Source of the DNA: SAR324 cluster bacterium
Lineage (GTDB): Bacteria > SAR324 > NAC60-12
Direction of reading: 5' to 3'
DNA: 64,000 bases
Assembly: GCA_015231825.1 (NCBI GenBank)
Contig: JADGAV010000009.1
Location: 147,870 to 211,869 of the forward strand
Positions 34,945 through 51,842 of the stretch are shown one piece after another. The notes under the pieces were generated by a model. The model was not told the DNA's origin and made no database searches. It saw nothing but the letters and a program-made list of their open reading frames with translations. The translations under genes were made by a program, and so were the position numbers. Within the stretch, counting starts at the first letter, position 1. Each line of letters starts with the position of its first letter.

Positions 34945-34973
34945 TGTTGTTCTCCTTTTTTTAAATTGAAGAT

Positions 34974-37914: not shown

Positions 37915-37918
37915 TTCA

Positions 37919-39151
37919 GTGGAGTTGAAACAAATAGAGGGATTTATGAATGGAATATTGAATGGAATGCGGGTTGTAGAAGGTTCGGCTTTTGTTGCAG
38001 CCCCTTCTGGAGGAATGACGCTGGCTTCATTGGGGGCAGATGTGATTCGCTTTGATCTGCCTGGAGGAGGGTTGGACTATAAACGATGGCCCGTTGCAAA
38101 AAGCGGTCAAAGTCTTTACTGGGCAGGACTGAACAAGGGCAAACGTTCCATCACCGTTGATTTTCGTACCCCGAAGGGACAGGAAATTCTGACGGCGTTG
38201 ATTTGTTCTGAAGGAGAAAACAAAGGTCTTTTTCTCACAAATTTTCCGGCAAAAGGGTGGTTGGACTACGAAAACTTAAAAAAGCGTCGCTCGGATCTGA
38301 TCATGCTCAACGTGAAAGGAGACCGGCACGGGGGATCTCAGGTGGATTATACCGTCAATCCGCGAGTAGGGTTTCCCACAGCAACGGGGTTTGAAGACTC
38401 AGAACCGGTCAATCATATGCTGCCTGCCTGGGATCTGATTACGGGTCAAATGGGGGCTGTCGGCCTGCTGGCTGCTGAACGCCATCGACGATTGACGGGG
38501 CAGGGGCAGCTGATCAATCTCCCGCTGGCCGATGTGGCAATGGCGACATTGGGGAATCTGGGAATTATTGGAGAAGTGATGATCAACAAGGAAGATCGAC
38601 CGCGCTACGGAAACTTCATGTATGGTGCTTTTGGAAAAGATTTTGAAACAAAAGATGGAAAGCGGATCATGATCATTGCCATTTCTCTCAGGCAATGGAG
38701 TGGTTTATGCCGTGCTACGGATTCGACGGAGGAAATGGAAGGCTTAAGCCGGCGCTTGAAGCTTGATTTCAGAGAAGAAGGGAATCGCTTCCTGGCACGG
38801 GAATCCATTGCGGCTCTGCTCATCCCCTGGATGAAAAGTCATGATTTGCAGGAAATTGAAAAAGTGTTTGAAGCGAACGGAGTTTGTTGGGGACCCTATC
38901 AGACCTTTCGGGAATTTGTTGAATCCGATCCTGAATGTACGGTTGAAAACCCCCTCTTTAAGAAGGTTAATCAACCAGGCATCGGGGACTATCTTGTTCC
39001 CGGTTATCCTGTTGATTTTTCCGCTGTTCCGCGAGTAGAACCCGGCCCGGCCCCTGAGCTTGGAGCCGATACCGACGAGGTATTGTCTATCGAGTTGGGG
39101 CTCTCTGACAGCGAAATCGGGAAACTCCATGATCAGAAAATTGTCGTGTAA
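37919..39151 (+). CDS. family III CoA-transferase (CaiB/BaiF/alpha-methylacyl-CoA racemase family)
   Basis: N-terminal GMRVVEGSAFVAAPSGGMTLASLGADVIRFD motif typical of CoA-transferase family III. 410 aa. Confidence 0.85.
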   Translation: MELKQIEGFMNGILNGMRVVEGSAFVAAPSGGMTLASLGADVIRFDLPGGGLDYKRWPVAKSGQSLYWAGLNKGKRSITVDFRTPKGQEILTALICSEGENKGLFLTNFPAKGWLDYENLKKRRSDLIMLNVKGDRHGGSQVDYTVNPRVGFPTATGFEDSEPVNHMLPAWDLITGQMGAVGLLAAERHRRLTGQGQLINLPLADVAMATLGNLGIIGEVMINKEDRPRYGNFMYGAFGKDFETKDGKRIMIIAISLRQWSGLCRATDSTEEMEGLSRRLKLDFREEGNRFLARESIAALLIPWMKSHDLQEIEKVFEANGVCWGPYQTFREFVESDPECTVENPLFKKVNQPGIGDYLVPGYPVDFSAVPRVEPGPAPELGADTDEVLSIELGLSDSEIGKLHDQKIVV

Positions 39152-39196
39152 TAAATTTTAGAAAAAAATAAATCTGTCCCGTTTTTTCTACTATTT

Positions 39197-40891
39197 TTGA
39201 GGAATCAAATGGAAATTTCAAATCGAGTCGGAGAAGCTCAGAAAGTACTTGGGCAGGGGCGTAATCTTCTGCAGTCCTGTTGGAGTACCGTCAAAAATCA
39301 TTGTTTGATCAATGGCAGGATCTCTTCATCCAGGTTGGATGAATTTCAACTGGTCTGTTATGAACTTGCCCTGTCAACTGCTGAGATCACCGGTGCTGAA
39401 CTGTTGTTGGAGTATGCCCAAAGACTTCGCAGCAAAGCGTCGAACCCCGGCGCGGAAATGATGCTGGAAGAGAAGATCGCTTTTACTTTTTGTTCTGAAA
39501 TCCTGCACTCGGTTCGCAGCAGGCTCGCAGCTAGAAAAGCGGATTTCGGCTTGTCTTCAACGACTTTGAATACTGCCCTTTATTCGCAGGAAACGGAAAA
39601 TTTTTGCGACCGCTATCTGAGATCCCAAAGCTTGGAGGAACTCGGGAGGTCTCTGCTGGAACTGGATGGAAGAACAGGAGACTCTCTTTTGGATGAAGAG
39701 AAAACAATCATGGTGGAAAGCTTCCGGAAATTTGCAGAAAAAGTTGTCGTTCCTCTGGCGGAAGAAATTCATCGGAAAGATCTGATCATTCCGGATGAAA
39801 TAATAAATCCCTTGATCGAATTGGGTTGTTTCGGGCTTTCAATTCCCATGAAGTATGAGGGGATTCAGGCAGATGATCAGGAAGACAACCTGGGGATGAT
39901 TGTCGTTACCGAAGAACTTTCCAGAGCGTCTCTGGGAGCGGCAGGGAGTTTGATCACTCGTCCGGAAATAATGGCAAAATCTCTGCTCAGAGGAGGAACT
40001 GAAGAGCAAAAACAGGACTGGCTGCCAAAGCTCGCTGCAGGCGATCCGCTATGTGCAATTGCGATCACGGAACCGGATTTCGGTTCCGATGTGGCTTCCA
40101 TTCAATTGAAGGCGTCAAAAACTGAAGGAGGATGGCTCCTGCAGGGAGAAAAGACATGGTGTACTTTTGGAGGAAAAGCCGGTGTCCTGCTGACTTTGGC
40201 CAGAACCAACCCGGATATGAGTTTGGGGCACCGGGGATTGAGCTTGTTTATAGTGGAAAAACCCAGCAGCGACGGCCATGAATTCAACTTCACCCAAAAG
40301 GAAGGAGGAAGCATCAGCGGAAAAGCAATCCCCACTTTAGGCTATCGCGGAATGCACTCTTTCAATGTTTTTTTTGATGATTACTTTGTTCCGGATTCCG
40401 GATTACTGGGAGAAGAAGCAGGTGAAGGAAAAGGATTTTATTTCACGATGGCCGGGTTTTCCGGCGGCAGAATCCAAACCGCCTCAAGGGCGAACGGCTT
40501 GATGCAGGCAGCCTATGAACAGGCACTGGAATATGCAAAAAATCGAAAAATCTTTGGAAAACCACTTTCCAATTATCAATTGACCCTGGTCAAACTGGCG
40601 AAAATGGCCTGCCTGCTTACTGCGTCCCGTCAATTCACCTATTCTGTCGGGCGCCTGCTGGATTCGGGCAACGGACAAATGGAAGCCAGCATGGTGAAAT
40701 TGTTTGCCTGCAAATCTGCGGAATGGATTTGCCGTGAAGCCACTCAAATTCATGGTGGCTTGGGGTATGCAGAAGAAACTCCAGTCAGCCGTTATTTTGT
40801 CGATTCCCGCGTGCTCTCTATCTTTGAAGGAGCGGAAGAAACGCTAGCCTTGAAGGTGATTGCCAAAACTATGATTGAGCAGGCGGACTAA
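39197..40891 (+). CDS. acyl-CoA dehydrogenase with N-terminal extension
   Basis: ACAD middle and C-terminal domains (GSDVASIQL, catalytic region YAEETPVSRYFVDSRVLSIFEGAEE). 564 aa. Confidence 0.8.
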   Translation: MRNQMEISNRVGEAQKVLGQGRNLLQSCWSTVKNHCLINGRISSSRLDEFQLVCYELALSTAEITGAELLLEYAQRLRSKASNPGAEMMLEEKIAFTFCSEILHSVRSRLAARKADFGLSSTTLNTALYSQETENFCDRYLRSQSLEELGRSLLELDGRTGDSLLDEEKTIMVESFRKFAEKVVVPLAEEIHRKDLIIPDEIINPLIELGCFGLSIPMKYEGIQADDQEDNLGMIVVTEELSRASLGAAGSLITRPEIMAKSLLRGGTEEQKQDWLPKLAAGDPLCAIAITEPDFGSDVASIQLKASKTEGGWLLQGEKTWCTFGGKAGVLLTLARTNPDMSLGHRGLSLFIVEKPSSDGHEFNFTQKEGGSISGKAIPTLGYRGMHSFNVFFDDYFVPDSGLLGEEAGEGKGFYFTMAGFSGGRIQTASRANGLMQAAYEQALEYAKNRKIFGKPLSNYQLTLVKLAKMACLLTASRQFTYSVGRLLDSGNGQMEASMVKLFACKSAEWICREATQIHGGLGYAEETPVSRYFVDSRVLSIFEGAEETLALKVIAKTMIEQAD

Positions 40892-40993
40892 AATTTTTTT
40901 TGGTATAGTCCGCAAATTCCTGTTTTCCGATTAAAATTTATTGCAAACCGATTTTTCAGGCTGCCTTTAATTCCAAAAAAGCTATTTATTCAC

Positions 40994-41764
40994 TTATGCC
41001 AGGCGAACTGCTCCATCCAAGCGGATGGTTTCTCCACTGAGCATCGTGTTTTCAATAATCGATTTTGCCAAAGCTGCATATTCGTCAGCACGTCCCAGAC
41101 GTTTTGGAAAAGGGGTGCTGGCTGCCAGGGCTTCCCGTGCTTTTTCAGGGAGACCATCCATCATGGGGGTATGAAAGAGACCGGGTGCAATAGTCATCAC
41201 CCGCATTCCGTAATCGGCAAATTCTCGTGCAATGGGAAGAGTCAATCCCACAAGTCCTCCCTTGGATGCAGAGTAGGCAGCTTGTCCGATTTGACCGTCA
41301 TAAGCGGCTACCGAAGCAGTGTTGATGAAAACTCCTTTTTCGCCGTCTGCATTTGTTGCCTCATTGTGGAACATTTTCTCGGAAGTATGACGAATGACAT
41401 TCATGGTCCCGATTAAATTGATATTGATCACTTTGGCAAACGAATCAAAGGTCATCATGCCTCTCTTTTGACTGAGGACTTTTGCAGGTGTCCCTACCCC
41501 GGCACAATTGATCACGATGTGAAGTGAAGCAAATTTTGCAATCACACGGTCCACACCAGCTTTTACCTGCTCATCGTCTGAGACATCTGTTTTAACAAAA
41601 AGGACTTTGTCCCCCAATTCTTCTGAAATCGCCTTTCCGGTTTCTTCATTGTAGTCGAAAATTGCAACACCACCTGCACCTTCTGCAAGCAATAGGCGGA
41701 CGCACGCGGCCCCAAGACCAGAAGCCCCGCCGGTGACAAGGGCATATTTATTAGTAATTTCCAT
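40994..41764 (-). CDS. SDR, 3-hydroxyacyl-CoA dehydrogenase type II (HSD10-like)
   Basis: YALVTGGASGLGAA, NCAG, YSASKGG motifs. Start taken at MEITNK to avoid overlap with the upstream gene. Confidence 0.8.
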   Translation of the reverse strand: MEITNKYALVTGGASGLGAACVRLLLAEGAGGVAIFDYNEETGKAISEELGDKVLFVKTDVSDDEQVKAGVDRVIAKFASLHIVINCAGVGTPAKVLSQKRGMMTFDSFAKVININLIGTMNVIRHTSEKMFHNEATNADGEKGVFINTASVAAYDGQIGQAAYSASKGGLVGLTLPIAREFADYGMRVMTIAPGLFHTPMMDGLPEKAREALAASTPFPKRLGRADEYAALAKSIIENTMLSGETIRLDGAVRLA

Positions 41765-41805
41765 TTGATTCTCCTGAAAAATTGTAAAATTGAAAACACG
41801 CAAAA

Positions 41806-42423
41806 TTATGATTGCTTTTGAGCACGTAGAATTGCCTCTCGTATCAAGCATAGACGATCGTTGCCGAAATACATGTCATTCCGGTTTACGAAGACTGTAG
41901 GAGAACCAAAACCTCCCCGGTCTATTAACTCCTGAGTATTGGTTTTGAGCCGTTCTTTAATTTCGGGCTTCGCGATTTCCTGAAAAAAGTCATCTGGCTC
42001 CAATCCGACTTGCCGGCAGATTTCCGTCAGGATTTCTGTTTGGGAAATATCCTGATCATCCCCCCAATAGGACTTGAATACCGCATTTGCAAAAGGAAGC
42101 AATTTTCCTTGCTTTTCAGCAATGAAGCAACCCCGCATCGCACGAACACTATTGACTGGAAAGACGGTAGGAGGCATTTTGATTTGAATGCCGTAGTGAT
42201 TTGACCAGTCAGCAAGATCTTTGATCATGTATTGGGCTTTAGGAATCACTGGATTTTCCCGGGACTGATAGACACTGGGGTTGATGCTGTTAAAAATGCC
42301 TCCCACCAGAATCGGCTTCCATTCAATCTGAACCTCCCGTTCTTTTGCCAACGGTTGAATCCCGATAAAGCCCAGATAAGTCCATGGACTGGAGCAATCA
42401 AAAAAAAATTCCACTGAAACCAT
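41806..42423 (-). CDS. 2-hydroxychromene-2-carboxylate isomerase / DsbA-like protein, second paralog
   Basis: FFFDCSSPWTYLGF N-terminus and GGFGSPTVFVNRNDMYFGNDRL C-terminus. Confidence 0.7.
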   Translation of the reverse strand: MVSVEFFFDCSSPWTYLGFIGIQPLAKEREVQIEWKPILVGGIFNSINPSVYQSRENPVIPKAQYMIKDLADWSNHYGIQIKMPPTVFPVNSVRAMRGCFIAEKQGKLLPFANAVFKSYWGDDQDISQTEILTEICRQVGLEPDDFFQEIAKPEIKERLKTNTQELIDRGGFGSPTVFVNRNDMYFGNDRLCLIREAILRAQKQS

Positions 42424-42608
42424 ATTTATTCCCCAAACCTTTAAATATAGGATAATATCTCCAAGTTCTGTTTTATTTTCAAGTGAATTTTGCCAGAAGA
42501 TGCTTCGCTTTCAAAGCAGGTCTTTTTTTGGTATTTGGATCACCGAAAGTGAAGTCCGCATCAAACCGATTGGTCTCCACTTTTTTAAACACTTTAATCA
42601 AAATAATA

Positions 42609-42979
42609 TCATGGCAATCGTTATCAAGTCTCCTTCTATCATAGAAGCCGCCGGTACAAAACCAAAAATTATTGAAGAATATGTGGGTCGGGTGAATTCC
42701 CGTCATGAACAGGTCAGTATTGCGAAAATGACCAGTCCTTCAGGGTGGGTAGAGCCAGGGCAAACTCCTGAATTTGATGAATATACAATGGTTTTGAAAG
42801 GAGAATTGACCGTGACTACTAAAAAAGAAAGCTTTCAGGTGAGTGCCGGACAAGCCATTGTGGTGGAAAAAGGAGAATGGATTCAATACAGCACCCCGCA
42901 TCCGGAAGGTGCAGAATATGTGGCCGTTTGCCTCCCTGCTTTTTCAATGGAAACTGTCCATCGTGATGATGAAGTTTGA
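42609..42979 (+). CDS. cupin-fold protein, ectoine-synthase (EctC)-like
   Basis: C-terminal AEYVAVCLPAFSMETVHRDDEV resembles the EctC tail (...ACVFTP...EVHRED). About 123 aa from Met MAIVIK. Confidence 0.45.
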
Positions 42980-42986
42980 AACTGCT

Positions 42987-44087
42987 TTATGTTGTCTTCA
43001 AGGTGAATAGCTTTATCTTTTCCTCTTTTCCTCTCAACTCACATTCGCCAATCTCCGTCAAATCGTAGCTATTTTTAAACAAATTGATCAATTTTTCAGA
43101 AATGAGAATGTCCACTTCATAAGAATTACATTCACTCTGAATTCTAGCAGTAGTATTTAAAACATCTCCTGAAAATGCGATCTCCTTTTTTAAAATTCCT
43201 ATTTCTCCAATAGTGGTTTTCCCAAAATGCAATCCAGCCTTAAAACCAGGAACCAAGCCAAATTTTTTTAAATATTTTCCGGAGGCCCTATCCAGGGTTT
43301 TTTTCATGATTAAAAAACATTGTATGCAGTTTTCATTTTTTACCCCTTCTTTCAATGTCCAGGAGATAATCACTTCATCACCAACATATTTATAGATTTC
43401 TCCGGAAGTTTTAGTAATGGCTTCTGTAAGGTCTTTGTAGTATTCATTCAACAACTCATAAAATTTTATATGTCCTAATTTTTCGGCAATGGAAGTTGAC
43501 GATTTCATGTCCAGGAACATGAATATTCGTTCTTCTTCTCTGGGTTTATGATATTTGCCAAGGATAAAATCTTTAAGGATACTCTGCCCAAGTTGATCAC
43601 TGACTTCTGAAAAGAAAAGCATTATGAATACAACTGTCCCCATGTAAATGATGACAGACCAAAAAGCAAAGTTTGTGATAAATTGAGTTACAGAATTAAG
43701 ATTTAATGGGTCAAAAAGCGAAACCTCTAAAACTATGCTGTTCAGAATAATGGTTAGGCTCAACAGAAATATACAAAGTGTGCTTATGTAGATGGAGGTT
43801 TTGATGAAAATTTTTTTCCCAAAAGACTGTCCGATAAAAATTTTTTTCAAAAACAGAATTTCGATAATTCCTATTGTCCAACCAATCAGTAATGCTCCCA
43901 CACTGACACCAACAAATGACTGCTCAAATTGATAGGGATTTCCTGTTGCTGGATAGTAATTTAAGTTACCGAGCAGTCCTCTTTCAACTACAGTCCAAAG
44001 AACACCAAAAAAACAGCAAATAATTCCAAATGGTAGAATTTTACTGATATTTCTTTTTTGAGTTGGAGAAAAATTAATAGGAGACAT
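42987..44087 (-). CDS. membrane-anchored class III adenylate/guanylate cyclase
   Basis: Six N-terminal TM helices. Cyclase homology domain with FMFLDMKSST, YVGDEVI and NTTARIQS motifs. Confidence 0.75.
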   Translation of the reverse strand: MSPINFSPTQKRNISKILPFGIICCFFGVLWTVVERGLLGNLNYYPATGNPYQFEQSFVGVSVGALLIGWTIGIIEILFLKKIFIGQSFGKKIFIKTSIYISTLCIFLLSLTIILNSIVLEVSLFDPLNLNSVTQFITNFAFWSVIIYMGTVVFIMLFFSEVSDQLGQSILKDFILGKYHKPREEERIFMFLDMKSSTSIAEKLGHIKFYELLNEYYKDLTEAITKTSGEIYKYVGDEVIISWTLKEGVKNENCIQCFLIMKKTLDRASGKYLKKFGLVPGFKAGLHFGKTTIGEIGILKKEIAFSGDVLNTTARIQSECNSYEVDILISEKLINLFKNSYDLTEIGECELRGKEEKIKLFTLKTT

Positions 44088-44238
44088 GAGATCCTTCTGT
44101 CGAACATTGGCACTAGCAAGCGGATAGGCAGACTATGCCTTTACAATCAATTTTTCAGGAGCGATCAATTCGAACCCTGCAAAAGCGAGATGGTGACATG
44201 GCTTTATACCCTTGTCAGCTGCTCCAGGCTGCAAAATA

Positions 44239-44694
44239 CTACAATTTTTTTAACAATTGTTTGTTTGCTGAGAATTGAAAACCAAGTCTGATATAGTACT
44301 CTAAGGCTCTTTTGTTCGTGGGCGTTGTTTCCAACTGCAAAGCGACTATGCCTCTCTTTTTTGAATCCCCGATACTGTTTAAAAAATGCGACCCAATCCC
44401 CTTATCTCGATAGTCCGGTTTGACATATAACTCATCTATATTCGCGAAACTTCCACCATATTCATTGCTCCAAAAATAAATGATAATTGCATAACCAACT
44501 ATAACTTTTTCTACTTCAAAAACTATGATCGATCCCTTTTGCGGATGACGTTTCAGTTCATCAATCGTCTTGTTGATTTTCGCAATTGTCATTTTCTCTC
44601 CATATTCGTCTTCTGAATAGAGAGAAAAAACCATCTTCTCAAGTTCTTCACAATCGCTTTCAATAAAATCTCGAAATACTGCTTTACTTGCCAA
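44239..44694 (-). CDS. GNAT family N-acetyltransferase
   Basis: YRDKGIGSHFLNSI acetyl-CoA-binding motif. 151 aa. Confidence 0.7.
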   Translation of the reverse strand: MASKAVFRDFIESDCEELEKMVFSLYSEDEYGEKMTIAKINKTIDELKRHPQKGSIIVFEVEKVIVGYAIIIYFWSNEYGGSFANIDELYVKPDYRDKGIGSHFLNSIGDSKKRGIVALQLETTPTNKRALEYYIRLGFQFSANKQLLKKL

Positions 44695-44932
44695 CTTTAT
44701 AAACCTTGGATTGATAATTAATGCGTGTTATGAGCCTGTACTCATTCCATCCAATATTGAAGATGTTTTTTCTTCCTGCATTATCAGCATGGAGAAATTA
44801 GGCACGTATTTCTTTGATATTTTGAAAATTTCCTTTTTTTATTTTTTGAAACCATTGCAGAAAGGAAGGTTTTACAGTTGGATGAATTGTATAAAACTTA
44901 ACTCCAGGAAGTCCGGAGCTCGGTTTCGAGCG

Positions 44933-46138
44933 TCATTCCCTGTCCGGGATCGCAGGAATCTCGGTGCACTTGCCGCGAGGGATATCGCCGGCACGGTCAT
45001 ACATTGGCAACTCACAGACTTCACTGGCTCGAGTATGTCCGTCAACGCATTCGACGCGCAGTTCGCTCCCCGGCCCAAGAGTCGGATCCTTCAGGCGTGC
45101 GATGGCAACACCACATTGAAGGTAGGGAGACCAGGCGCTGCTGCAGACAAGACCGGCGGACTCGCCATTGAGATAAAGAGTATCACCGTGGCGGGCCACG
45201 CCATCGGCGCATCGCAGCCCCCAGGTACGTCTGCTCTTGTCCGCCTGTGCGAGTGCGGGCATACCGATAAAGCCGGATTTTTTAAAATCCACCAACGCCC
45301 CAAGCCCCGCGGCGAACGGAGTCACGCTGTCATCAAAATCAGTACCTGCGAAAAGCAACCCAGCTTCTATGCGTCGGGCGTTGGTCGCTGCAGCCGGTAT
45401 GGTGTGAATCCCGTGGCGTTCTCCTGCCTTCAGGATCACTTCCCCGATGACATCAGCGTCGGTATCGGATCCGAAGTAAAACTCCCAGCCCAGCTCGTTG
45501 GTGAAACCCGTCCGGCTGATCACCACAGGTTGGCCACCGATATGTATCTGGGCCAGATCGAAGTATCGAAAGAGATCCGGCATACCTTCGTCGGAGGCTT
45601 GAGCGAGCACATCCATTGAACGCGGACCCTGGACCTGGCTGATCCAAACATTGGCATCGAATACCTCGACGGCGAAACCTTCCGCGTGGGCACGCAGCCA
45701 GACTGGAAACTCGCCATCACCTTGGGCATACCAAAAGCGGTCGGGCGCGAGCCGAAGAAGGACTCCATCCATAATCATTCCGCCATCCGCAAAACAGGCA
45801 ATTTGATAGCTGCAACGCCCGACACGCACGCGTGACACATCTCGTGTGAACACACGGTTTAGCATAGCTTCGGCATCCGGCCCGCGGATCTCGGTTGCCA
45901 GTTCGCCGGTATGTGCAAGACCGACCTGCCGCCGCAAACGCCAGTAGAGTTCTTCCGTGCCAACGTTGCCGTATGCAAGCGATCGCAACCGTCGATTGTA
46001 GACGCCGAACTCCGGGTCATGCGGAAGTTCCTGGTGCACCAGCGGATGCGGTGTCATGGACTGTCGGAATTCACTCGCACCACCACTGGTGGTCACTGGC
46101 TTCACCACGAATTCTGTATTGTTCTTTGAGTGTATCAA
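44933..46138 (-). CDS. aminomethyltransferase, GcvT/DmdA family folate-binding protein
   Basis: GcvT-family architecture (ISRTGFTNELGWEFY, C-terminal barrel). The CDS is about 57% GC whereas flanking DNA is about 40%. Confidence 0.8.
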   Translation of the reverse strand: MIHSKNNTEFVVKPVTTSGGASEFRQSMTPHPLVHQELPHDPEFGVYNRRLRSLAYGNVGTEELYWRLRRQVGLAHTGELATEIRGPDAEAMLNRVFTRDVSRVRVGRCSYQIACFADGGMIMDGVLLRLAPDRFWYAQGDGEFPVWLRAHAEGFAVEVFDANVWISQVQGPRSMDVLAQASDEGMPDLFRYFDLAQIHIGGQPVVISRTGFTNELGWEFYFGSDTDADVIGEVILKAGERHGIHTIPAAATNARRIEAGLLFAGTDFDDSVTPFAAGLGALVDFKKSGFIGMPALAQADKSRRTWGLRCADGVARHGDTLYLNGESAGLVCSSAWSPYLQCGVAIARLKDPTLGPGSELRVECVDGHTRASEVCELPMYDRAGDIPRGKCTEIPAIPDRE

Positions 46139-46755
46139 ATTACCTCCCGGTGTTTAGGGCTTAAAGAAATCAACAAATGATCTGATTCGCTTCAAAGGAA
46201 TAGCGGATCAACTCCCCAAGACTCAGCAGCACAGTCTGGGAAATCGCCTCCATCTGTTTGTTGAACTGAAATCCACCTCAGGCTCTCGTGTCTGCTTCTT
46301 TTCTTAAAGCACTGTTGTTGCATCCAAAAAATGGCATTCATGACGCTTTTTGACTTTTTTTAAAAATCTTGTCTCAAGTAAGTTCGCTTTCTACTTGTAG
46401 AATCTTTTCTTTTATCCATAAATTTAGCAGAGTTTCTTCACGGATTCCTCGCTTTTCTGCATTTTGCTTAATCTTTTGTGAATGTTGTTCTTTTTTTGAA
46501 AGTATCTGCTGTGTGTTTCAAATTTGATATTGAACGAGGCAACCCCTTTTTGTGCTCTGTTGAATCATGTTCTTTCCGGAAGGCACCGATTTCCGGGCAA
46601 GTTTGGGTATTTGAAGCAGTGGTTGTACGGGACCGGGACAAATCCCTGGCTCTTTGAAGATGAATTTCAGCCGGTATTCTTGTACTTCGGGAACTTCTTA
46701 TTCTTCCACATTGTGATTCCAATGCAGTTTTTCGACGTCACCCTTTAAGCCATCG

Positions 46756-47508
46756 TTAGGCCTTTTGAAGTCCTTGTAAATATTCATTTTTCCTATCTTT
46801 CTCAAGATATTTCAGCGCATTACCAAGACTTTCTTTTGAAAATGATTTCAAGTGATTTTCAACAAATGAAATGACAATTTTTTCATTTTGTTTTGATATA
46901 TCACGCAAAATCCAGCCCACTGCGGTCTTTGAAAAACGTTCTTTTCTGTTGATGAGAACACTGCATGCCTCTTGAATCAATGGATAATATTTTGACTCCG
47001 ATGCTAAATTTACAAAAGGAACTACAGATGATCTTGCTTGCCACAAATAGTCAGCATCTTTCCATTTTATTATTGATTCTGCACATTGTTCACCGTTTTC
47101 CTTGATTGTTGCTCCCAATATACGAACGCAAAACCAGTCACAAATATTCCAATCAAATATCAATTCCTGTTCATATATTTCTTCATACCTTTCAAGCAGA
47201 ATTTTCCAGGGAAACTTGTCATAGAGATAATTTTGAAGCAATAAGATTCCTGCAAGTTTGTCTTCTGCGATGGGCTCTCTAAAAAATTCCAATGCCAAAT
47301 CAAGCTGATTTTCTAAAGTCCAGTTGTCAATTCCATTTGCCTTCCGCCATTCTCCCAGCAATTCCCGATTTTTGGGAATACCGACTCCTCTGAATGGAAT
47401 CACTCCTTTCATATATTTTTCCCACCATAGCTTTGTTTTTTCGCTAGCTTCAGTTGCCAATGCCTTTTGGTGTTTTTGAATTAATTCCTGATAATTGCTT
47501 GTCATCAT
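46756..47508 (-). CDS. DNA alkylation repair enzyme family protein (AlkC/AlkD-like HEAT repeat)
   Basis: 250-aa all-helical protein with W/K-rich repeats (KTAVGWILRD). Resembles pfam08713 family members. Confidence 0.5.
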   Translation of the reverse strand: MMTSNYQELIQKHQKALATEASEKTKLWWEKYMKGVIPFRGVGIPKNRELLGEWRKANGIDNWTLENQLDLALEFFREPIAEDKLAGILLLQNYLYDKFPWKILLERYEEIYEQELIFDWNICDWFCVRILGATIKENGEQCAESIIKWKDADYLWQARSSVVPFVNLASESKYYPLIQEACSVLINRKERFSKTAVGWILRDISKQNEKIVISFVENHLKSFSKESLGNALKYLEKDRKNEYLQGLQKA

Positions 47509-47860
47509 TTAAAGCCTAACATAGTCGCAAACATTAAAAATGGGTTTCACTTCTAAAAAGGAGTTCTTCAATTGTTATAATCAGCGAGTCCAATCAATCA
47601 ACTGTTCAATCAAATTCCTCGAATGGAACTTCAATTTTGGGTGTATAATTTAGATGGGAATTTGGTGAAATTGATAATCCACGGCATACATTTACCGGTG
47701 AGTCGGAATGATACCTCAACTTGCCTTTTCTGCTGATTACAGTATTCTTTTTCTTCCTGCCAAGTTCAATTCCTTATGGAGGAAAGGTATTTCCTTTGTG
47801 AGAAGGATTGTCTGTGATCAATTCAAAATTATTTACTGCACTGAAAAGGAGTATAGTCAT

Positions 47861-48463
47861 ATGAGAACCCTGCTTTTGATTTTGTCCCTGTTTTTTACCA
47901 TTTCCTACGCCGAGGCACAGGAATCGATTCGTGGAAATTTTGATGCCTTAAACGGGGTGCCGAAAATGCACAGCATGGAGAAATTTGTGTTTGAAGAATT
48001 TCTCAATTTCGGCTGTCCGCACTGCAATAATTTCCGGATGCTCTCTCAGGAAATGAAGGAAAAATATAAAAATCGGGTTGAATTTATTGATGTCCCCATT
48101 TTATTTCGTGGACAGGCCGATGCACCACTACGTTTGTTTTATGTCGCCAAATCTCTCGGCAAAGCAGAATCGGTGAAAAATGCAATTTTTGAAGCGCAGT
48201 TCAAACATGGTGTGGATGTATTTGACCCTGGAATCATCAACTATCTTGCTCGCTCATTGGGGATGGGAAAAGAATACAGTCGAGATGCGCAAAGTGCTGA
48301 AATCACTCAAAAGATAAAGGACAGTGAGCAAAAAGCAACCCGCTATGGAATCCAGGCTACACCCACTATTGTGTTGGCAGAAACTTTGAGGATGAAAATT
48401 GGCGGCAGCATGGAAGAATTTGTAGAGAATCTCCCGCAAACCTTTGATGATTTATTGAAATAG
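47861..48463 (+). CDS. dsbA: DsbA family thiol:disulfide oxidoreductase
   Basis: Signal peptide MRTLLLILSLFFTISYAEA. CPHC active site (FLNFGCPHCNNF). RBS aaggag 7 nt upstream of ATG 47861. Confidence 0.75.
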   Translation: MRTLLLILSLFFTISYAEAQESIRGNFDALNGVPKMHSMEKFVFEEFLNFGCPHCNNFRMLSQEMKEKYKNRVEFIDVPILFRGQADAPLRLFYVAKSLGKAESVKNAIFEAQFKHGVDVFDPGIINYLARSLGMGKEYSRDAQSAEITQKIKDSEQKATRYGIQATPTIVLAETLRMKIGGSMEEFVENLPQTFDDLLK

Positions 48464-48502
48464 AGTTTTCCGGCCTCAGAAAAGGCCGGAACTTTTGGTT
48501 CT

Positions 48503-49423
48503 TTATTTTAGAGATTCGAAAAAGTCACGTTCGCTACTGAGCAAAAGCGTCGTGCCTTCTTTCATCGTTTCCCGATAAGCATCGTGTGAACGTTGAAATT
48601 TGAAAAAGTCAGGATCTTTTCCATAAGCTGCAGCATAAATAGAAACGGAACTGGCGTCAGCGGTTCCCCGGATTTCTTCTGATTTTTTTTGCGCTTCCGC
48701 AAGGAGCTTGATCCGGTCCCGATCTGCAGCAGAACGAATGGATAGAGATTGCTCTTCTCCTTCAGAGCGGTACCTTTTTGCGTCCCGCCGACGTTCTGCT
48801 TCCATACGCCCGTAAACGGCACGACTGTTGGCGGTCGGCAGATCTGCTCGTTTAATCCGCACATCCTCAATTTCTATTCCAAATGCCCTGGCTTCTTTTT
48901 GAGCATTTTCTGTGATTTCCTTCAAAATGCTTTTACGCAGGTTGATTGCCTCGGCATCGAGCACACTGTTCTTGATCTGCGTGCTGAATTGACCGCTGTG
49001 CTGGCTTCCGGAGACAATTTCAGTAAGGGTATGCTGACCAAGAACCTGCCGGACCTGGGAATAAATAATATCATCCAAACGGGCTTGTGCCTGAGAGGTG
49101 CTGCGCATGGTTTGATAAAATTTTAAAGGATCGGTTACTTTCCATTTCGCATAATTGTCAACCACCATTTCTTTTTTGTCTTTTGTAAAAATTGAGCCGG
49201 GGTCGGCATCGTAGGTCAACAGTCGATTGTCAACAACAAAGATTTCGGTGATAAAAGGAATTCTAAAATGCAGGCCCGGTTCCTTGTAAATTCTTACGGG
49301 ATCTCCCAAACGTATTTTTACGGCATATTCAGTTTGATCAATGACAAAAGCAGTTGCAGAATATGCCACTACAAGACCGATTACGATGAAGAGCAAAATT
49401 TTGATAGCGCTGAAGGATTTCAT
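48503..49423 (-). CDS. hflC: SPFH/band-7 family protein (HflC-like)
   Basis: N-terminal TM anchor, SPFH domain (YAVKIRLGDPVRIYKEPGLHFRIPFI), coiled-coil region. 306 aa. Confidence 0.75.
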   Translation of the reverse strand: MKSFSAIKILLFIVIGLVVAYSATAFVIDQTEYAVKIRLGDPVRIYKEPGLHFRIPFITEIFVVDNRLLTYDADPGSIFTKDKKEMVVDNYAKWKVTDPLKFYQTMRSTSQAQARLDDIIYSQVRQVLGQHTLTEIVSGSQHSGQFSTQIKNSVLDAEAINLRKSILKEITENAQKEARAFGIEIEDVRIKRADLPTANSRAVYGRMEAERRRDAKRYRSEGEEQSLSIRSAADRDRIKLLAEAQKKSEEIRGTADASSVSIYAAAYGKDPDFFKFQRSHDAYRETMKEGTTLLLSSERDFFESLK

Positions 49424-49652
49424 ATCGAGTTTATGCCGTTAAATGATTTAAATACCAAATTTTAGACTGAAACTTGCATGTTTATGCGTTTTACAAAAAG
49501 ATAACAGAATCTGATGCTAAGAAAAATGTCTGAAAATCTTGGTTAGGATTGCAAAAATTTTCGACTATCATATCACCATCACTTGATTTTTTACAATTTT
49601 TTTTGCAAAGAGTCTTTGTCTGGCAAGTCGATCAGCAACACGGAGGTTCAAT

Positions 49653-49901
49653 ATGTTTGGTTTTCGTTCTCCCAAAGAACAGGACATTGTGATTCAACTC
49701 GCATTGAAGCAAATTGAGAAAATGCTGAAGGAAATGGATGGAGAAGGGAAAGATTTGAGGAAACTGAAATTGAAACGATTTCAAAAAACACACCATGTGA
49801 ATTGTCGCTGCGATCAATGTCAGACTGCCAAGGCTAAGGAAGATCCCCGCCTGAGAGGACTTCAGGAAGCCGGATTTAAAGTCTATGTGGAAGGAGATTG
49901 A
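49653..49901 (+). CDS. small hypothetical protein
   Basis: 82-aa ORF with a CRCDQC motif, directly upstream of the mla-like operon. Coding status uncertain. Confidence 0.25.
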   Translation: MFGFRSPKEQDIVIQLALKQIEKMLKEMDGEGKDLRKLKLKRFQKTHHVNCRCDQCQTAKAKEDPRLRGLQEAGFKVYVEGD

Positions 49902-49958
49902 TGAAAGGAAAGAGATTCCCCGATGTCCTGTAAATTTCCGAAGTTTCCTCCCTGTTGA

Positions 49959-51050
49959 ATGAGTTTTATGCGAATTGAACTGCCCGAAAAAATGAGCCTG
50001 GAAACCATTCCGCAATTTCTTTCCCAAATTGATTCGGTGCTTTCCAAACCTGCTGGTGAAGAATTGGTTTTAGATTTTTCCCGGGTCAATCATTTGGATA
50101 TGTCCGGAGTGGGTACTGTGGTGCGATGCATGGAGCGGTGCCGAACAGAAAAAATTGAAATTCGGTTTGAAAATGTAGATCCCAAACTCTCCCATTTGCT
50201 GGGATTTGTGAATATAGAAGATGTGGCAGGCAGCACCGGTCCGCCACCTAAAAAAAGGGGGATTTTTGAAAAAATTGGCCGAGACACCCGCTGGTACTTT
50301 AAAGATACTCTTGGATTTTTAGAGTTTTTGGGAAAAACAACAAGCATTCTCGCAAAAGAACTGCTCCGCCCTGATAAAATTCGATGGTCCGATACCTTTT
50401 ATTATCTGGAAGCCACGGGAGTCAATGCGCTGCCCATTGTCGGATTGATTTCATTGTTGCTCGGAATGATCATTGCTTTTCAATCTTCAGATCAGTTGGC
50501 CCAGTTTGGGGCGAACATATTTGTTGTCGAGCTGGTCTCGATTTCAATGCTGAGAGAATTGTCCCCATTGATCACTTCCATCCTGATAGCAGGTCGATCC
50601 GGCTCTGCTTTTACTGCAGAAATTGGTACAATGCAGGTTTCTGAGGAAGTTGATGCGATGAGAGTGATTGGGCTGGACTTGACCGAATATTTGATTTCTC
50701 CAAAATTCTGGTCTTTACTGATCGCGTTGCCGCTCCTTGTTTTCTTTGGAGATTTGATGGGGCTGATCGGGGGGGCCGTTATCGCAAACTGGAAGCTGGA
50801 TATTCCCTACATGACATTTATTTTAAGATTGCAGGAAAAGGTGGCAGTCACTCATTTGGTTCTGGGATTGGGGAAGTGCTTTGCTTTTGCAGCAATTATC
50901 AGCATTGTCGGATGCTACCGCGGAATGCTGGTGACCAGTGGTGCAGGGAGCGTTGGCCGGCAGACAACGTCCTCCGTGGTGACTTCTATCTTTCTCGTAA
51001 TTATTGCCGATGCGGCTTTTTCGATCATTTTTACGATGGTCGGGATTTAG
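49959..51050 (+). CDS. mlaE: MlaE-family ABC permease with N-terminal STAS (MlaB-like) domain fusion
   Basis: N-terminal about 100 aa STAS-like (VLDFSRVNHLDMSGVGTVV), followed by MlaE/YrbE permease helices. Confidence 0.8.
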   Translation: MSFMRIELPEKMSLETIPQFLSQIDSVLSKPAGEELVLDFSRVNHLDMSGVGTVVRCMERCRTEKIEIRFENVDPKLSHLLGFVNIEDVAGSTGPPPKKRGIFEKIGRDTRWYFKDTLGFLEFLGKTTSILAKELLRPDKIRWSDTFYYLEATGVNALPIVGLISLLLGMIIAFQSSDQLAQFGANIFVVELVSISMLRELSPLITSILIAGRSGSAFTAEIGTMQVSEEVDAMRVIGLDLTEYLISPKFWSLLIALPLLVFFGDLMGLIGGAVIANWKLDIPYMTFILRLQEKVAVTHLVLGLGKCFAFAAIISIVGCYRGMLVTSGAGSVGRQTTSSVVTSIFLVIIADAAFSIIFTMVGI

Positions 51051-51074
51051 AATTCTGGTGTGTGAACCGAAAGA

Positions 51075-51842
51075 TTGATGATGAACGTTATTGAAGTCAA
51101 TAAACTGGTCACTAAATACGGAGCAAGGGTGATTCACAATGAATTGACCTTTAACATTCAAAAGGGAGAGATTTTTGTGATTTTGGGCGGCAGCGGCTGC
51201 GGGAAAAGTACCCTGCTCAAGCACCTGAGCCGCTTGCTCATGCCCAGCAGCGGCCAAATACTGATCGATGGCACCGATGTTACCTTTCTTCATGAAAGTT
51301 CCTTGCAGGAAGCAATGAGGCCGGTCGGATTTATGTTTCAATCGGGTGCTTTATTTGGTTCGCTTACACTTCTGGAAAATGTGGCGGTTCCCTTGTTTAA
51401 ATTCACGAAATTGGACAAAGAGACCGTGAAAGCAATATCCCGGGTCAAATTGGGGATGGTCGGCCTGGGTGGATTTGAGGGGTACTATCCCCATGAAATC
51501 AGCGGCGGTATGAAAAAAAGGGCAGGAGTTGCAAGAGCAATGGCGCTTGATCCTAAAATTCTTTTGCTGGATGAACCCAGCGCGGGCCTGGATCCGATCA
51601 GTGCGGATGAACTGGACGATTTGATTTTAGGATTGAACCGGGCGTTGGGGATTACTTTTGTGATCGTGACCCACGAATTGCAGAGCATTTTCAAAGTCGC
51701 TCAGAGAGTAATCATGTTGGGGCGGGGAAACATACTCGCGGAAGGGGATCCGAATCTTCTGAAAGATTCCGAGAAACCCTGGGTATCTGATTTTTTTAAC
51801 CGCCGTGGTAAATTCAAACAATATTTGACGAGCAATCCATGA
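51075..51842 (+). CDS. mlaF: MlaF-family ABC transporter ATP-binding protein
   Basis: Walker A GGSGCGKST, signature ISGGMKKRAGVARAM, Walker B LLLDEP. Confidence 0.85.
   Translation: MMMNVIEVNKLVTKYGARVIHNELTFNIQKGEIFVILGGSGCGKSTLLKHLSRLLMPSSGQILIDGTDVTFLHESSLQEAMRPVGFMFQSGALFGSLTLLENVAVPLFKFTKLDKETVKAISRVKLGMVGLGGFEGYYPHEISGGMKKRAGVARAMALDPKILLLDEPSAGLDPISADELDDLILGLNRALGITFVIVTHELQSIFKVAQRVIMLGRGNILAEGDPNLLKDSEKPWVSDFFNRRGKFKQYLTSNP

What the first reader, a model, noticed from the sequence alone, without database searches (positions are those of the whole stretch)
44900..46140. Single GcvT/DmdA-family gene with sharply elevated GC content, boundaries matching the CDS
The aminomethyltransferase-family gene on the minus strand is about 57% GC, with GC-rich codons CGG/GCG/GCC. 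The flanking GNAT gene and the 600-bp upstream spacer are about 38-42% GC, like the rest of the window. The compositional jump coincides with the stop and start codons. A spurious 302-aa antisense ORF appears only because of the high GC. This looks like a recently acquired single-gene insertion. It could be a DMSP-demethylase-like or glycine-cleavage-T paralog. The same pattern could alternatively come from assembly chimerism.
Basis: seen in the sequence. Interest (0 to 1): 0.6.

Follow-up and report, generated by a model that had tools for sequence, protein, structure and literature searches.

The report
Foreign folate-enzyme gene in SAR324 islet
The GC-rich gene is real and foreign: it sits in a 4.7-kb patchwork of imported genes that a related SAR324 genome lacks at the same spot, and its closest relatives elsewhere are mobile integron gene cassettes, so this is an ordinary but well-documented case of horizontal gene transfer.

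Summary
The ORF at 44933-46138 (-) encodes a 401-aa GcvT-family protein with 57.8% GC. The other 54 window ORFs average 44.7% (sd 3.3, max 50.5).

It is not a lone insertion in normal flanks. Its neighbours (cyclase, GNAT, AlkD-like) are the lowest-GC genes in the window, at 33-36%. A related genome (L122) is collinear with the window on both sides but has 72 nt where the window has 4,735 bp (42982-47716). All four co-oriented genes therefore form a lineage-specific islet.

The nearest homologues (83-88% aa, 87% nt) lie in 48-64% GC contigs. The named ones are Xanthomonadales, Woeseia and Chloroflexota MAGs. In at least four independent arrays the gene is a canonical integron cassette with attC sites. 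The closest AlkD-like relative is also a cassette. The window AlkD-like gene keeps the GTTAGGC and GCCTAAC core heptamers exactly at its ends. No attC hairpin or integrase survives in the window.

The window gene copy shows 66 GC-to-AT versus 14 AT-to-GC lineage-specific changes and normal purifying selection. That fits a resident, ameliorating, functional gene rather than a chimera.

The protein is a THF-dependent aminomethyl/methyl-transferase of unknown substrate. It is not GcvT, DmdA or Tdm by curated cut-offs.

Verdict: a known kind of event, of moderate interest.

The parts
42982..47716 (-). Lineage-specific islet of 4,735 bp carrying four co-oriented genes (AlkD-like, GcvT-family, GNAT, cyclase). 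The related genome L122 has only 72 nt here.
   Evidence: blastn collinearity: window 36891-42981 matches L122 14533-8482, and window 47717-52641 matches L122 8409-3466, at 75-76% identity. Junction sequences are shown. The L122 gene order is given.
44933..46138 (-). GcvT-family (aminomethyltransferase-fold, THF-binding) CDS of 401 aa with a TTG start. GC is 0.578.
   Evidence: Pfam GCV_T 1e-42 and GCV_T_C 4e-14. NCBIfam scores are all below cut-off: Tdm C-terminal half 210.8/1100, GcvT 154/300, DmdA 151/410. The best PDB match is the TMAO demethylase C-terminal domain, 9q59, 5.6e-49. Homologues of 401 aa align over 100% of the length.
46139..46229 (-). Retained proximal part of the leader that travels with this gene in other genomes. 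It includes the Shine-Dalgarno GGGAGG at 46144-46149. The distal ~86 nt of the 177-nt cassette leader are missing.
   Evidence: blastn homology to L038 and L065 runs to 46229.
44900..44932 (-). Conserved 3' tail of the imported unit, with a terminator-like hairpin (stem 44920-44900, then a T-rich tail in AT-rich host sequence).
   Evidence: Homology to L036, L042 and L114 runs to 44910-44912. Terminator scan. Downstream alignment.
46756..47508 (-). AlkD-like DNA alkylation repair gene, GC 0.355. Probably a former integron cassette.
   Evidence: Pfam DNA_alkylation 5.6e-36. The closest relative (81%) in L035 is a canonical cassette between attC sites. In other hosts the gene keeps GC 0.37-0.39 whatever the host GC is.
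47514..47520 (-). GTTAGGC core-site (R') heptamer 5 nt upstream of the AlkD-like ATG. Homology to the L035 cassette begins exactly here.
   Evidence: Sequence. Alignment A3. This is the only minus-strand GTTAGGC in the 64-kb window.
46755..46761 (-). GCCTAAC inverse-core (R'') heptamer overlapping the AlkD-like stop codon, as in the L035 and L124 cassettes. No attC hairpin follows it.
   Evidence: Alignment A4. Fold of 46670-46761 gives z = +0.04.
46230..46754 (.). Spacer of 525 nt of unknown origin between the AlkD-like and GcvT units. It has no protein relic, no repeat, no RNA family match and no convincing attC.
   Evidence: tblastx and blastn, Rfam, inverted repeats. The attC-like candidate 46168-46266 has z = -1.42.
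44239..44694 (-). GNAT acetyltransferase gene, GC 0.357, part of the islet.
   Evidence: Pfam Acetyltransf_1 2e-14. GC. Absent from L122.
42987..44087 (-). Membrane-anchored adenylate/guanylate cyclase-domain gene, GC 0.334. It is the last gene of the islet, and its stop codon lies 7 nt from the convergent cupin stop codon.
   Evidence: Pfam Guanylate_cyc 4.8e-14. GC. Junction.
44711..45619 (+). Spurious 302-aa antisense ORF made possible by the high GC of the GcvT gene.
   Evidence: It overlaps the well-supported minus-strand CDS.

Best explanation
The GC-rich gene is a horizontally acquired, still functional cargo gene. It lies in a 4.7-kb islet (42982-47716) that the window's SAR324 lineage gained between a cupin gene and a dsbA-like gene.

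The islet is a patchwork of four co-oriented accessory genes. Each keeps the base composition of a different source: three are about 34-36% GC and one is 58% GC. This is why the GC step coincides with the gene borders.

The most likely source is the integron gene-cassette pool of marine bacteria. The GcvT-family gene circulates elsewhere as a 1.55-kb cassette made of a 177-nt leader, the ORF and a 99-nt attC. The AlkD-like gene circulates as a classical cassette. In the window the units survive as fossil cassettes: the ORFs, short homologous UTRs and two core heptamers remain, but no attC hairpin and no integrase.

Shown: the foreign composition; the empty site in a relative; the nesting of the protein inside a clade from GC-richer hosts; the cassette status of the relatives; and GC-to-AT amelioration with purifying selection in the window copy.

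Inferred: that the window copies arrived by integrase-mediated insertion, for example at a genomic GWT/GTT site as described for SALIN and small CALIN elements, and lost their attC sites afterwards.

The enzyme has an aminomethyltransferase fold and binds THF. Its most probable role is to transfer a C1 unit from a small methylated compound to tetrahydrofolate. The substrate is unknown.

The confidence of 0.72 is for the whole statement, including the cassette-pool origin. Foreign origin within a lineage-specific islet on its own rates about 0.9.
For: **Composition**
- Gene GC is 0.578, against a window mean of 0.447 (z 3.9 to 4.8).
- The neighbouring islet genes have the lowest GC in the window.

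**Empty site**
- L122 (GCA_010367345.1) has the order FemAB-Mla-HflC-DsbA2-cupin-DsbA1-SDR-ACAD-CoA transferase-MaoC. It is collinear with the window on both sides at 75-80% nucleotide identity.
- L122 has 72 nt where the window has 4,735 bp.

**Phylogeny**
- The window protein is a terminal twig among sequences of 83-88% identity.
- These come from contigs with flank GC of 0.48-0.64. The named members are Xanthomonadales, Woeseia, Gammaproteobacteria and Promineifilaceae.
- No other SAR324-labelled hit appears in the top 120.
- High GC is not intrinsic to the family. Members in 27-32% GC contigs have GC 0.33 and GC3 0.18 (L107, L110).

**Extent of the imported DNA**
- Homology to relatives covers 44910-46229 only.

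**Amelioration and selection**
- The window lineage has 66 S>W versus 14 W>S unique substitutions, the largest count among 11 copies.
- There are 43 synonymous versus 27 non-synonymous codon changes, similar to the relatives.

**Cassette status of relatives**
- L038 and L065 carry attC sites of 96, 99, 72 and 69 nt with RYYYAAC...GTTRRRY ends. Their fold z-scores run from -3.1 to -7.0.
- The same cassette, with the same 5' boundary and the same attC, follows a DUF1330 cassette in L038 and a HicAB cassette in L118.
- L042 has an attC.
- In L040 the array lies between housekeeping genes with no integrase among the ten ORFs scanned.

**AlkD-like gene**
- L035 is a canonical cassette whose own attC has z = -5.1.
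- The window keeps GTTAGGC 5 nt before the ATG and GCCTAAC over the stop codon. Homology to L035 starts at the core site.
- Three of the four such heptamers in the 64-kb window lie in the islet.

**Literature**
- Integrase-mediated insertion of cassettes at genomic GWT sites produces SALINs and small CALINs (bioRxiv 10.1101/2022.09.11.507474, read).
Against: - No attC hairpin is detectable in any islet spacer. Fold z-scores are +1.8 to -1.4, and the inverted-repeat scan found nothing suitable.
- No integrase lies within about 6 kb on either side.
- No target-site duplication or terminal repeats were found.
- The GcvT unit lacks the distal part of its cassette leader and its attC, so its own cassette boundaries are not preserved.
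- Nothing links the GNAT and cyclase genes to cassettes.
- Only a subset of the close GcvT relatives shows clear attC sites.
- The polarity, insertion in the window lineage versus deletion in L122, rests on composition rather than on an outgroup. Four other SAR324 relatives are rearranged at this point.
- Read-level support for the junctions could not be examined.
Confidence: 0.72

Rival explanations
1. Assembly or binning chimera: the 1.3-kb GC-rich segment, or the whole islet, was wrongly joined into a SAR324 contig from another organism in the sample.
For: - The contig comes from a MAG.
- The composition changes abruptly.
- No second assembly carries the same junctions. The best hits are 87-88% for GcvT and 81% for AlkD.
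- Read data are not available.
Against: - Both flanks of the islet are collinear with one independent genome. The GcvT segment is nested between low-GC genes, so four false joins inside intergenic DNA would be required.
- Similarity to relatives decays gradually into the leader instead of stopping at a high-identity break.
- The copy carries a strong GC-to-AT substitution bias, as expected after residence in a lower-GC genome.
- A terminator-like hairpin straddles the GC/AT border.
Confidence: 0.04
2. Foreign genes acquired by a route unrelated to integrons, for example transformation with illegitimate recombination, or a phage, gene transfer agent or vesicle. On this view the cassette status of the relatives is incidental.
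For: - The window has no attC hairpins, no integrase and no clean cassette boundary for GcvT.
- Several close relatives (L001, L003, L004, L036, L119, L120) also lack clear attC sites.
- A scan of the viral contigs found no viral copy, so no vector is identified in either direction.
Against: - The AlkD-like gene keeps both core heptamers exactly at its ends, and its homology to a bona fide cassette starts at GTTAGGC.
- Two of the four islet genes have cassettes as their closest relatives.
- The co-orientation of all four genes and their mosaic GC are typical of cassette arrays. L040 and L118 show equivalent integrase-less arrays between housekeeping genes.
Confidence: 0.2
3. The islet is ancestral and L122 lost it, so it is a deletion in the relative rather than an insertion here. 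The gene would still be foreign, but anciently acquired.
For: - Only one relative has an informative syntenic site.
- The four other close SAR324 genomes are rearranged beyond DsbA2.
- The GcvT copy has already accumulated about 90 private substitutions.
Against: - All four genes are still compositional outliers in two opposite directions.
- GC3 of 0.597 is far from the host value of 0.45.
- The nearest homologues of two of the genes are mobile cassettes in other phyla at 81-88% identity. An ancient acquisition should not leave such close relatives.
Confidence: 0.08
4. Native gene whose high GC reflects amino-acid composition or selection on expression.
For: - GC1 (0.66) and GC2 (0.48) are raised as well as GC3.
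- Across the family the gene is usually 1-5 points GC-richer than its flanks.
Against: - The excess here is +13 points against the window and +22 against the immediate flanks. This is the second largest of about 85 loci, exceeded only by L041, which has 846 nt of flank.
- Family members track host GC down to 0.33 (L107, L110).
- The gene is absent from the syntenic site in L122.
- No SAR324-labelled homologue appears among the top hits.
Confidence: 0.02

Closest known systems
Integron gene cassettes, CALIN and SALIN (clusters of attC sites, or single attC sites, lacking an integron integrase)
   Same: - The closest relatives of the GcvT-family gene (L038/L065, L118, L042, L040) and of the AlkD-like gene (L035, L124) are cassettes bounded by RYYYAAC...GTTRRRY attC sites.
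- The window islet resembles those arrays. It is a short run of co-oriented accessory genes of mixed GC, lies between housekeeping genes and has no integrase.
- The window AlkD-like gene keeps both core heptamers.
   Different: - No attC hairpin is detectable in the window.
- The GcvT unit is truncated at both cassette ends.
- IntegronFinder-type detection would therefore probably not call this a CALIN. It is at best a decayed one.
Small genomic islet acquired by horizontal transfer
   Same: - Atypical composition.
- Presence/absence polymorphism at a syntenic site.
- Phylogenetic incongruence.
- Accessory functions.
   Different: - No tRNA, integrase, transposase or direct repeats.
- Very small (4.7 kb).
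- Internally mosaic, with parts from at least two sources of different GC.
[quoted passage not shown]
   Same: - Best sequence match in the PDB (5.6e-49) and in NCBIfam.
- Same GcvT-like cloverleaf fold region.
- The residues equivalent to Tdm R480 and F582, which contact THF, are conserved in the alignment.
   Different: - The window protein has only a GcvT-family match (residues 52-381) plus a family-specific ~50-aa N-terminal extension, and it aligns only to residues 436-787 of Tdm. The TMAO-demethylating part of Tdm described in the eLife paper lies upstream of that region.
- Tdm F672 and K782 are not conserved.
- The score is 210.8 against a cut-off of 1100.
DmdA, DMSP demethylase (NF009133; PDB 3TFH)
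   Same: - Same fold and same cofactor.
- Relatives of the window protein at 52-69% identity sit next to acyl-CoA synthetase, enoyl-CoA hydratase, acyl-CoA dehydrogenase and LysR genes. This arrangement recalls dmdA-dmdB-dmdC-dmdD.
   Different: - Scores are 140-195 bits against a cut-off of 410, both for the window protein and for its relatives.
- The neighbouring ligase is not the DmdB equivalog (294/822).
- The window clade (>=75% identity) has no such neighbours.
GcvT, T-protein of the glycine cleavage system
   Same: Pfam GCV_T and GCV_T_C domains; THF-dependent aminomethyl transfer fold.
   Different: - Below both GcvT equivalog cut-offs (128/236 and 154/300).
- No gcvH or gcvP next to it.
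- It has an extra N-terminal segment.

Membership tests
GcvT/aminomethyltransferase superfamily (Pfam PF01571 + PF08669) | Folate-binding domain plus C-terminal barrel, both above the Pfam gathering scores | tested here: met
   GCV_T scores 146.6 bits (cut-off 25.6) and GCV_T_C scores 52.6 bits (cut-off 25.9).
Glycine cleavage T-protein (GcvT proper) | Score above the NCBIfam equivalog or subfamily cut-off | tested here: not met
   TIGR00528 128.2/235.85, NF001567 154.3/300, NF010093 85/459.
Glycine cleavage T-protein (GcvT proper) | Genomic association with gcvH and gcvP | tested here: not met
   The neighbours are GNAT, AlkD-like and cyclase genes. Close relatives have variable, unrelated neighbours.
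DmdA (DMSP demethylase) | Score above the NF009133 equivalog cut-off (410 bits) | tested here: not met
   151.3 bits. Relatives score 140-195 bits.
DmdA (DMSP demethylase) | Demethylation of DMSP to MMPA with THF | not testable with these tools
   Requires an enzyme assay. The only indirect hint is the dmdBCD-like context of relatives at 52-69% identity.
Tdm (TMAO demethylase) | Full-length two-part architecture with the N-terminal Zn-dependent demethylase core (score cut-off 1100 bits) | tested here: not met
   210.8 bits, matching only profile positions 408-756 of 763. The PDB alignment covers Tdm residues 436-787 only.
Integron gene cassette | attC site (R''-L''...L'-R' imperfect hairpin, 55-140 nt) directly downstream of the ORF | tested here: not met
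   In the window the folds downstream of GcvT and of AlkD have z = -1.23 and +0.04, and no suitable inverted repeats were found. The feature is met in the relatives L038/L065, L042, L118 and L035.
Integron gene cassette | 5' boundary at the G|TTRRRY core site shortly before the start codon, with homology between copies ending there | tested here: inconclusive
   Met for the window AlkD-like gene: GTTAGGC lies 5 nt before the ATG, and homology to L035 starts there. Not met for the window GcvT unit, whose homology ends inside the cassette leader at 46229.
Complete integron | intI integrase and attI next to the array | tested here: not met
   The ORFs within about 6 kb on either side are annotated and none is a tyrosine recombinase. 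The rest of the 220-kb contig was not examined.
Horizontally acquired genomic islet | Atypical composition, absence from the syntenic site of a relative, and phylogenetic incongruence | tested here: met
   composition; empty site; phylogeny and host GC.
Horizontally acquired genomic islet | Mobility hallmarks: tRNA target, flanking direct repeats, integrase or transposase | tested here: not met
   No tRNA in the window. No flanking repeats. No mobility gene in the islet.

The most novel reading that the evidence does not exclude
The 401-aa protein may belong to an uncharacterised, widely mobile subfamily of THF-dependent demethylases. The subfamily is about equidistant from DmdA and the Tdm C-terminal domain. 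Its members spread among marine bacteria as an integron cassette with their own ~177-nt leader.

More distant members (52-69% identity) sit in operons with an acyl-CoA ligase, an enoyl-CoA hydratase and an acyl-CoA dehydrogenase. This suggests a DMSP-like or MMPA-like methylated-carboxylate demethylation pathway that current dmdA-based surveys would miss. SAR324 would have picked up such a C1- or sulfur-cycle function by cassette capture.
Probability: 0.15. Interest if true: 0.6.

Novelty: new member of a known kind. Interest (0 to 1): 0.35.

Why it matters
The locus is a clean worked example of how a free-living marine lineage (SAR324) gains accessory metabolism. A tiny islet with no integrase is built from units that circulate elsewhere as integron cassettes, and each unit still carries the GC signature of its source.

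For annotation, it warns that 'aminomethyltransferase/GcvT' here is neither the glycine-cleavage T protein nor DmdA. Counting it as either would distort C1 or DMSP budgets inferred for SAR324.

The mobile GcvT-like subfamily is a reasonable target for biochemical characterisation, given its link to dmdBCD-like operons in distant relatives. The transfer event itself is an already known kind of process.

Tried and rejected
1. **Mobile-element ends around the GcvT gene.** Direct and inverted repeat scans, tRNA search, and tblastx of the spacers against all fetched loci found nothing.
2. **Phage carriage.** A viral-contig scan with the protein gave no relative.
3. **Known riboswitch or RNA in the leader.** Rfam at permissive E-values on the window and on six relatives gave no relevant hit.
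4. **Novel structured leader RNA.**
   - RNAalifold on nine leaders gave -3.3 kcal/mol with no convincing helices.
   - Mean leader identity (0.68) matches that of four-fold degenerate sites (0.66).
   - The conservation is therefore explained by co-inheritance, and I dropped the riboswitch idea.
5. **Inverted repeats bracketing the gene as transposon-like TIRs.** They turned out to be the R' of the preceding attC and the R'' of the gene's own attC.
6. **attC sites in the window.**
   - My heuristic scan for AAC...GTT hairpins gave two weak candidates, 46168-46266 (z = -1.42) and 44745-44887 (z = -1.23). Both were rejected as not significant.
   - A covariance model was not built, because the MAFFT alignment of 11 attC sites carried no consensus structure.
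7. **Empty site via the HflC neighbour.** In 30 GTDB SAR324 genomes, synteny ends at DsbA2 in the four closest, so they were uninformative. The DsbA1 homologue route succeeded.
8. **MetF-like identity of a ~290-aa neighbour in distant relatives.** No Pfam or NCBIfam support was found.
9. **Taxon names through cluster membership.** No names were returned.
Full report
**1. The observation**

The ORF 44933-46138 on the minus strand encodes 401 aa. It starts with TTG, preceded by a GGGAGG Shine-Dalgarno sequence.

- Its GC is 0.578 (GC1 0.659, GC2 0.478, GC3 0.597).
- The other 54 long ORFs of the window average 0.447 (sd 0.033, maximum 0.505). This ORF is the top value at every codon position.
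- Against all 1206-bp sliding windows outside the region (mean 0.444, sd 0.028, maximum 0.508) the z-score is 4.8.
- GC rises from about 0.35 to about 0.6 within one 150-nt step on each side. The GC-rich sequence begins about 28 nt beyond the stop codon and ends just upstream of the start.
- The 302-aa antisense ORF is present. It overlaps a gene with strong Pfam support on the other strand.
- Synonymous-codon choice is only moderately atypical (z = -2.3).

One part of the description is wrong. The flanks are not typical of the window. The cyclase (0.334), AlkD-like (0.355) and GNAT (0.357) genes are the three lowest-GC genes of the window.

**2. Where the window comes from and what surrounds the gene**

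The protein is 100% identical to a record named 'SAR324 cluster bacterium' on a 220,519-bp contig. The neighbouring genes are as follows:

- Lower-coordinate side: a block with a MaoC-like hydratase, a CoA transferase, an acyl-CoA dehydrogenase, an SDR, a DsbA-family isomerase (DsbA1) and a cupin.
- Islet: four minus-strand genes, in order of transcription AlkD-like, GcvT-family, GNAT and a membrane cyclase.
- Higher-coordinate side: DsbA-like (DsbA2), HflC-like, MlaEFD and FemAB-like.

**3. The empty site**

A genome-collection scan with the HflC-like protein returned 30 SAR324-type loci. The four closest keep FemAB/Mla-HflC-DsbA2, but synteny stops after DsbA2, so they were uninformative.

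A search with DsbA1 found a 79%-identical homologue. Its contig (L122, GCA_010367345.1) carries the order FemAB-MlaD-MlaF-MlaE-HflC-DsbA2-cupin-DsbA1-SDR-ACAD-CoA transferase-MaoC.

- At DNA level, window 36891-42981 aligns with L122 14533-8482.
- Window 47717-52641 aligns with L122 8409-3466, at 75-76% identity.
- L122 therefore has 72 nt where the window has 4,735 bp (42982-47716). Homology breaks two bases after the cupin stop codon and resumes about 150 nt before DsbA2.

The unit that differs between the genomes is thus the whole four-gene islet, not the GcvT gene alone. Because both flanks belong to one collinear genome, an end-to-end chimera is excluded. An inserted false segment would need several false joins inside intergenic DNA.

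**4. Origin of the GcvT-family gene**

- The best non-self hits are 83-88% identical over the full length. The named ones are Xanthomonadales, Woeseia, Gammaproteobacteria and Promineifilaceae MAGs, followed by Acidimicrobiia and Piscinibacter at 70-72%.
- In a neighbour-joining tree of the 115 of the best 120 hits that are at least 360 aa long, the window protein is a terminal twig inside this clade.
- Across about 85 loci recovered from metagenomes, every member with at least 75% identity lies in a contig with flank GC of 0.48-0.64.
- The window's excess (+0.13 over the window, +0.22 over its immediate flanks) is the second largest seen. Only L041, with 846 nt of flank, is higher at +0.139.
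- Family members in 27-32% GC contigs have GC 0.33 and GC3 0.18, so the protein does not force a high GC.
- Nucleotide identity to the nearest copies is 87%, and 76% at third codon positions.
- DNA homology covers 44910-46229 only. That is the ORF, about 23-35 nt of 3' tail and about 91 nt of leader.
- Relative to the consensus of ten close copies, the window copy has 66 GC-to-AT and 14 AT-to-GC private substitutions. This is the largest count of any copy. The ratio tracks host GC across copies: 0.6 in the 64%-GC host, 4.3 in the 50%-GC host and 4.7 here.
- Private codon changes are 43 synonymous and 27 non-synonymous, similar to the other lineages.

I read this as a gene that has lived in the AT-richer genome long enough to start ameliorating and is still under purifying selection.

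**5. How the gene travels**

In close relatives the genomic context differs every time, yet about 170-200 nt upstream and 35-90 nt downstream are shared. Inspection of L038 explained why.

- The gene lies between canonical attC sites: 556-651 (GCATAAC...GTTATGC, 96 nt) and 2099-2197 (GCATAAC...GTTAGGT, 99 nt).
- A further core site sits upstream, and a DUF1330-like ORF forms the preceding cassette.
- As single-stranded DNA these sites fold far better than shuffles (z = -4.9 and -3.1). Further sites on L065 are textbook attC sites: GCCTAAC...GTTGGGT of 72 nt (z = -3.1) and GCCTAAC...GTTAGAG of 69 nt (z = -7.0).
- The same cassette, with the same 5' boundary at GTTATG and the same 99-nt attC, follows a HicAB cassette in L118, just after the pnp terminator.
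- L042 has the same 5' boundary and an attC of 63 nt.
- In L040 the gene is the last unit of a 4-kb array of small ORFs. The array includes a HigB toxin gene followed by an HTH-domain gene, likely its antitoxin. It lies between a hydrolase gene and a TonB-dependent receptor gene, with no integrase among the ten ORFs scanned, including all those over 150 aa upstream of the array. This makes it a CALIN-type array.
- An alignment of 11 such sites gives the consensus ends GCATAAC-AA ... CGTTAGG.

Not every close relative shows a clear attC.

**6. The other islet genes**

The nearest homologue of the AlkD-like protein is 81% identical, and the named relatives are 'Spirochaetales' MAGs. The gene has GC 0.37-0.39 wherever it occurs. 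This includes a 55%-GC contig (L035) and a 46%-GC contig (L124). It matches its surroundings only in contigs of about 39% GC.

In L035 it is a classical cassette:

- An attC ends in GTTAGGC 9 nt before the ATG.
- The gene's own attC starts with GCCTAAC over the stop codon (87 nt, z = -5.1).

In the window the same gene has GTTAGGC 5 nt before its ATG and GCCTAAC over its stop codon. Homology to L035 begins exactly at the core site and continues through the inverse core. These heptamers occur only four times in the 64-kb window. Three are in the islet and two sit at the AlkD-like gene borders in the right orientation.

**7. What is missing in the window**

- No islet spacer folds like an attC. 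Fold z-scores are +1.45, +1.78, +0.04, -1.23 and -1.42.
- The inverted-repeat scan found nothing suitable.
- No integrase gene lies within about 6 kb.
- There is no tRNA and there are no flanking repeats.
- The 525-nt spacer 46230-46754 matches nothing.

The islet is therefore best described as an array of fossil cassettes. Integrase-mediated insertion of cassettes at genomic GWT sites, which yields single or few cassettes without an integrase, has been demonstrated experimentally (bioRxiv 10.1101/2022.09.11.507474). Both islet junctions carry a GTT on the coding strand, but that is weak evidence. The route of entry remains an inference.

**8. What the protein is**

- Pfam finds the aminomethyltransferase folate-binding domain and the C-terminal barrel.
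- NCBIfam places it below every curated cut-off: Tdm C-terminal half 210.8/1100, GcvT 154/300 and 128/236, DmdA 151/410.
- That domain binds THF and converts channelled formaldehyde to methylene-THF (eLife RP109964).
- In the printed alignment, the equivalents of Tdm R480 and F582 are conserved. F672 and K782 are not.
- The window protein has no region that aligns to Tdm residues 1-435, the part upstream of the THF-binding domain. Instead it has a family-specific extension of about 50 aa.
- Relatives at 48-69% identity give the same score pattern. This is a distinct, uncharacterised subfamily.
- In 37 such loci the gene is linked to an AMP-forming acyl-CoA synthetase (PRK08162 type, not the DmdB equivalog). 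In 32 it is linked to an enoyl-CoA hydratase. It is often linked also to a divergent LysR regulator and an acyl-CoA dehydrogenase.

This arrangement recalls dmdABCD. It suggests demethylation of a small methylated carboxylate, followed by CoA activation. The window clade (at least 75% identity) has no such neighbours.

My best functional call is a THF-dependent C1 transferase or demethylase of unknown substrate. DmdA-like activity is possible but unproven.

**9. Verdict**

The compositional anomaly is real and well explained. It reflects horizontal acquisition, most likely from the integron cassette pool, within a small mosaic islet that a related genome lacks. This is a new example of a known process. 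The residual interest lies in the mobile, uncharacterised GcvT-like subfamily and in how an integrase-less cassette patch became fixed in a SAR324 chromosome.

Noticed in passing
L038:646-822, L118:2822-3000, L042:30-206, and partly window 46139-46229: A leader of about 177 nt travels with the GcvT-family cassette in different arrays. It has strongly conserved blocks (for example CCCGCGAAC, TCAGACAA, and TTTCAAGCCGTCAACACTGGGAGACAACGTG). Cassettes are usually promoterless with short 5' UTRs, so this one may carry its own promoter or operator. There is no Rfam match and no convincing consensus fold, and overall conservation is no higher than at four-fold degenerate sites.
   Followed up: partly
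L054-L117 (e.g. L054:6256-10829, L071:9418-15474, L079:8096-10929): Relatives at 52-69% identity are consistently clustered with an acyl-CoA synthetase, one or two enoyl-CoA hydratases, an AidB-like acyl-CoA dehydrogenase and a divergent LysR regulator. This is a dmdABCD-like layout built around a non-DmdA GcvT-family enzyme, and a possible uncharacterised demethylation pathway.
   Followed up: partly
L035:111-1022; L124:416-1340; window 46755-47520: The AlkD-like DNA alkylation repair gene is itself an itinerant integron cassette. It keeps GC at about 0.37-0.39 in hosts ranging from 39% to 55% GC. In L035 it sits next to SnoaL, RelB and MazG cassettes and to transposase fragments.
   Followed up: yes
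L118:2203-4362 and L040:7100-11250: Small cassette arrays without an integrase are inserted directly after a pnp terminator (L118) or between a DUF3530 hydrolase gene and a TonB-dependent receptor gene (L040). Each contains a toxin-antitoxin-type cassette: HicAB in L118, and in L040 a HigB toxin gene with an adjacent HTH-domain gene.
   Followed up: partly
window 47708-48463: The longest-ORF start of the DsbA-like gene (251 aa) is probably too far upstream. Homologues in L005, L006, L007, L029 and L122 are about 200-219 aa and align from about 47828-47861 onward.
   Followed up: partly
window 51839-53788: The MlaD-like protein is 649 aa, with a long low-complexity or coiled-coil C-terminal extension. 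Relatives are 374-479 aa and only 46-54% identical, whereas the adjacent MlaE and MlaF are 77-88% identical. This is a fast-evolving tail.
   Followed up: no
window 33748-42423 and L122:8991-17477: A conserved block of CoA-dependent catabolic genes is shared at 75-81% nucleotide identity with L122. It contains a thiolase, a ChsH2-like OB-fold/ACP-synthase-III-like protein, a MaoC-like hydratase, a family III CoA transferase, a 564-aa acyl-CoA dehydrogenase, an SDR and a 2-hydroxychromene-2-carboxylate isomerase-like DsbA. It looks like a steroid or aromatic side-chain degradation module.
   Followed up: no
window 42987-44087: The cyclase gene is the lowest-GC gene of the window (0.334). Its stop codon is only 7 nt from the convergent cupin stop codon, which is exactly at the islet border.
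   Followed up: partly
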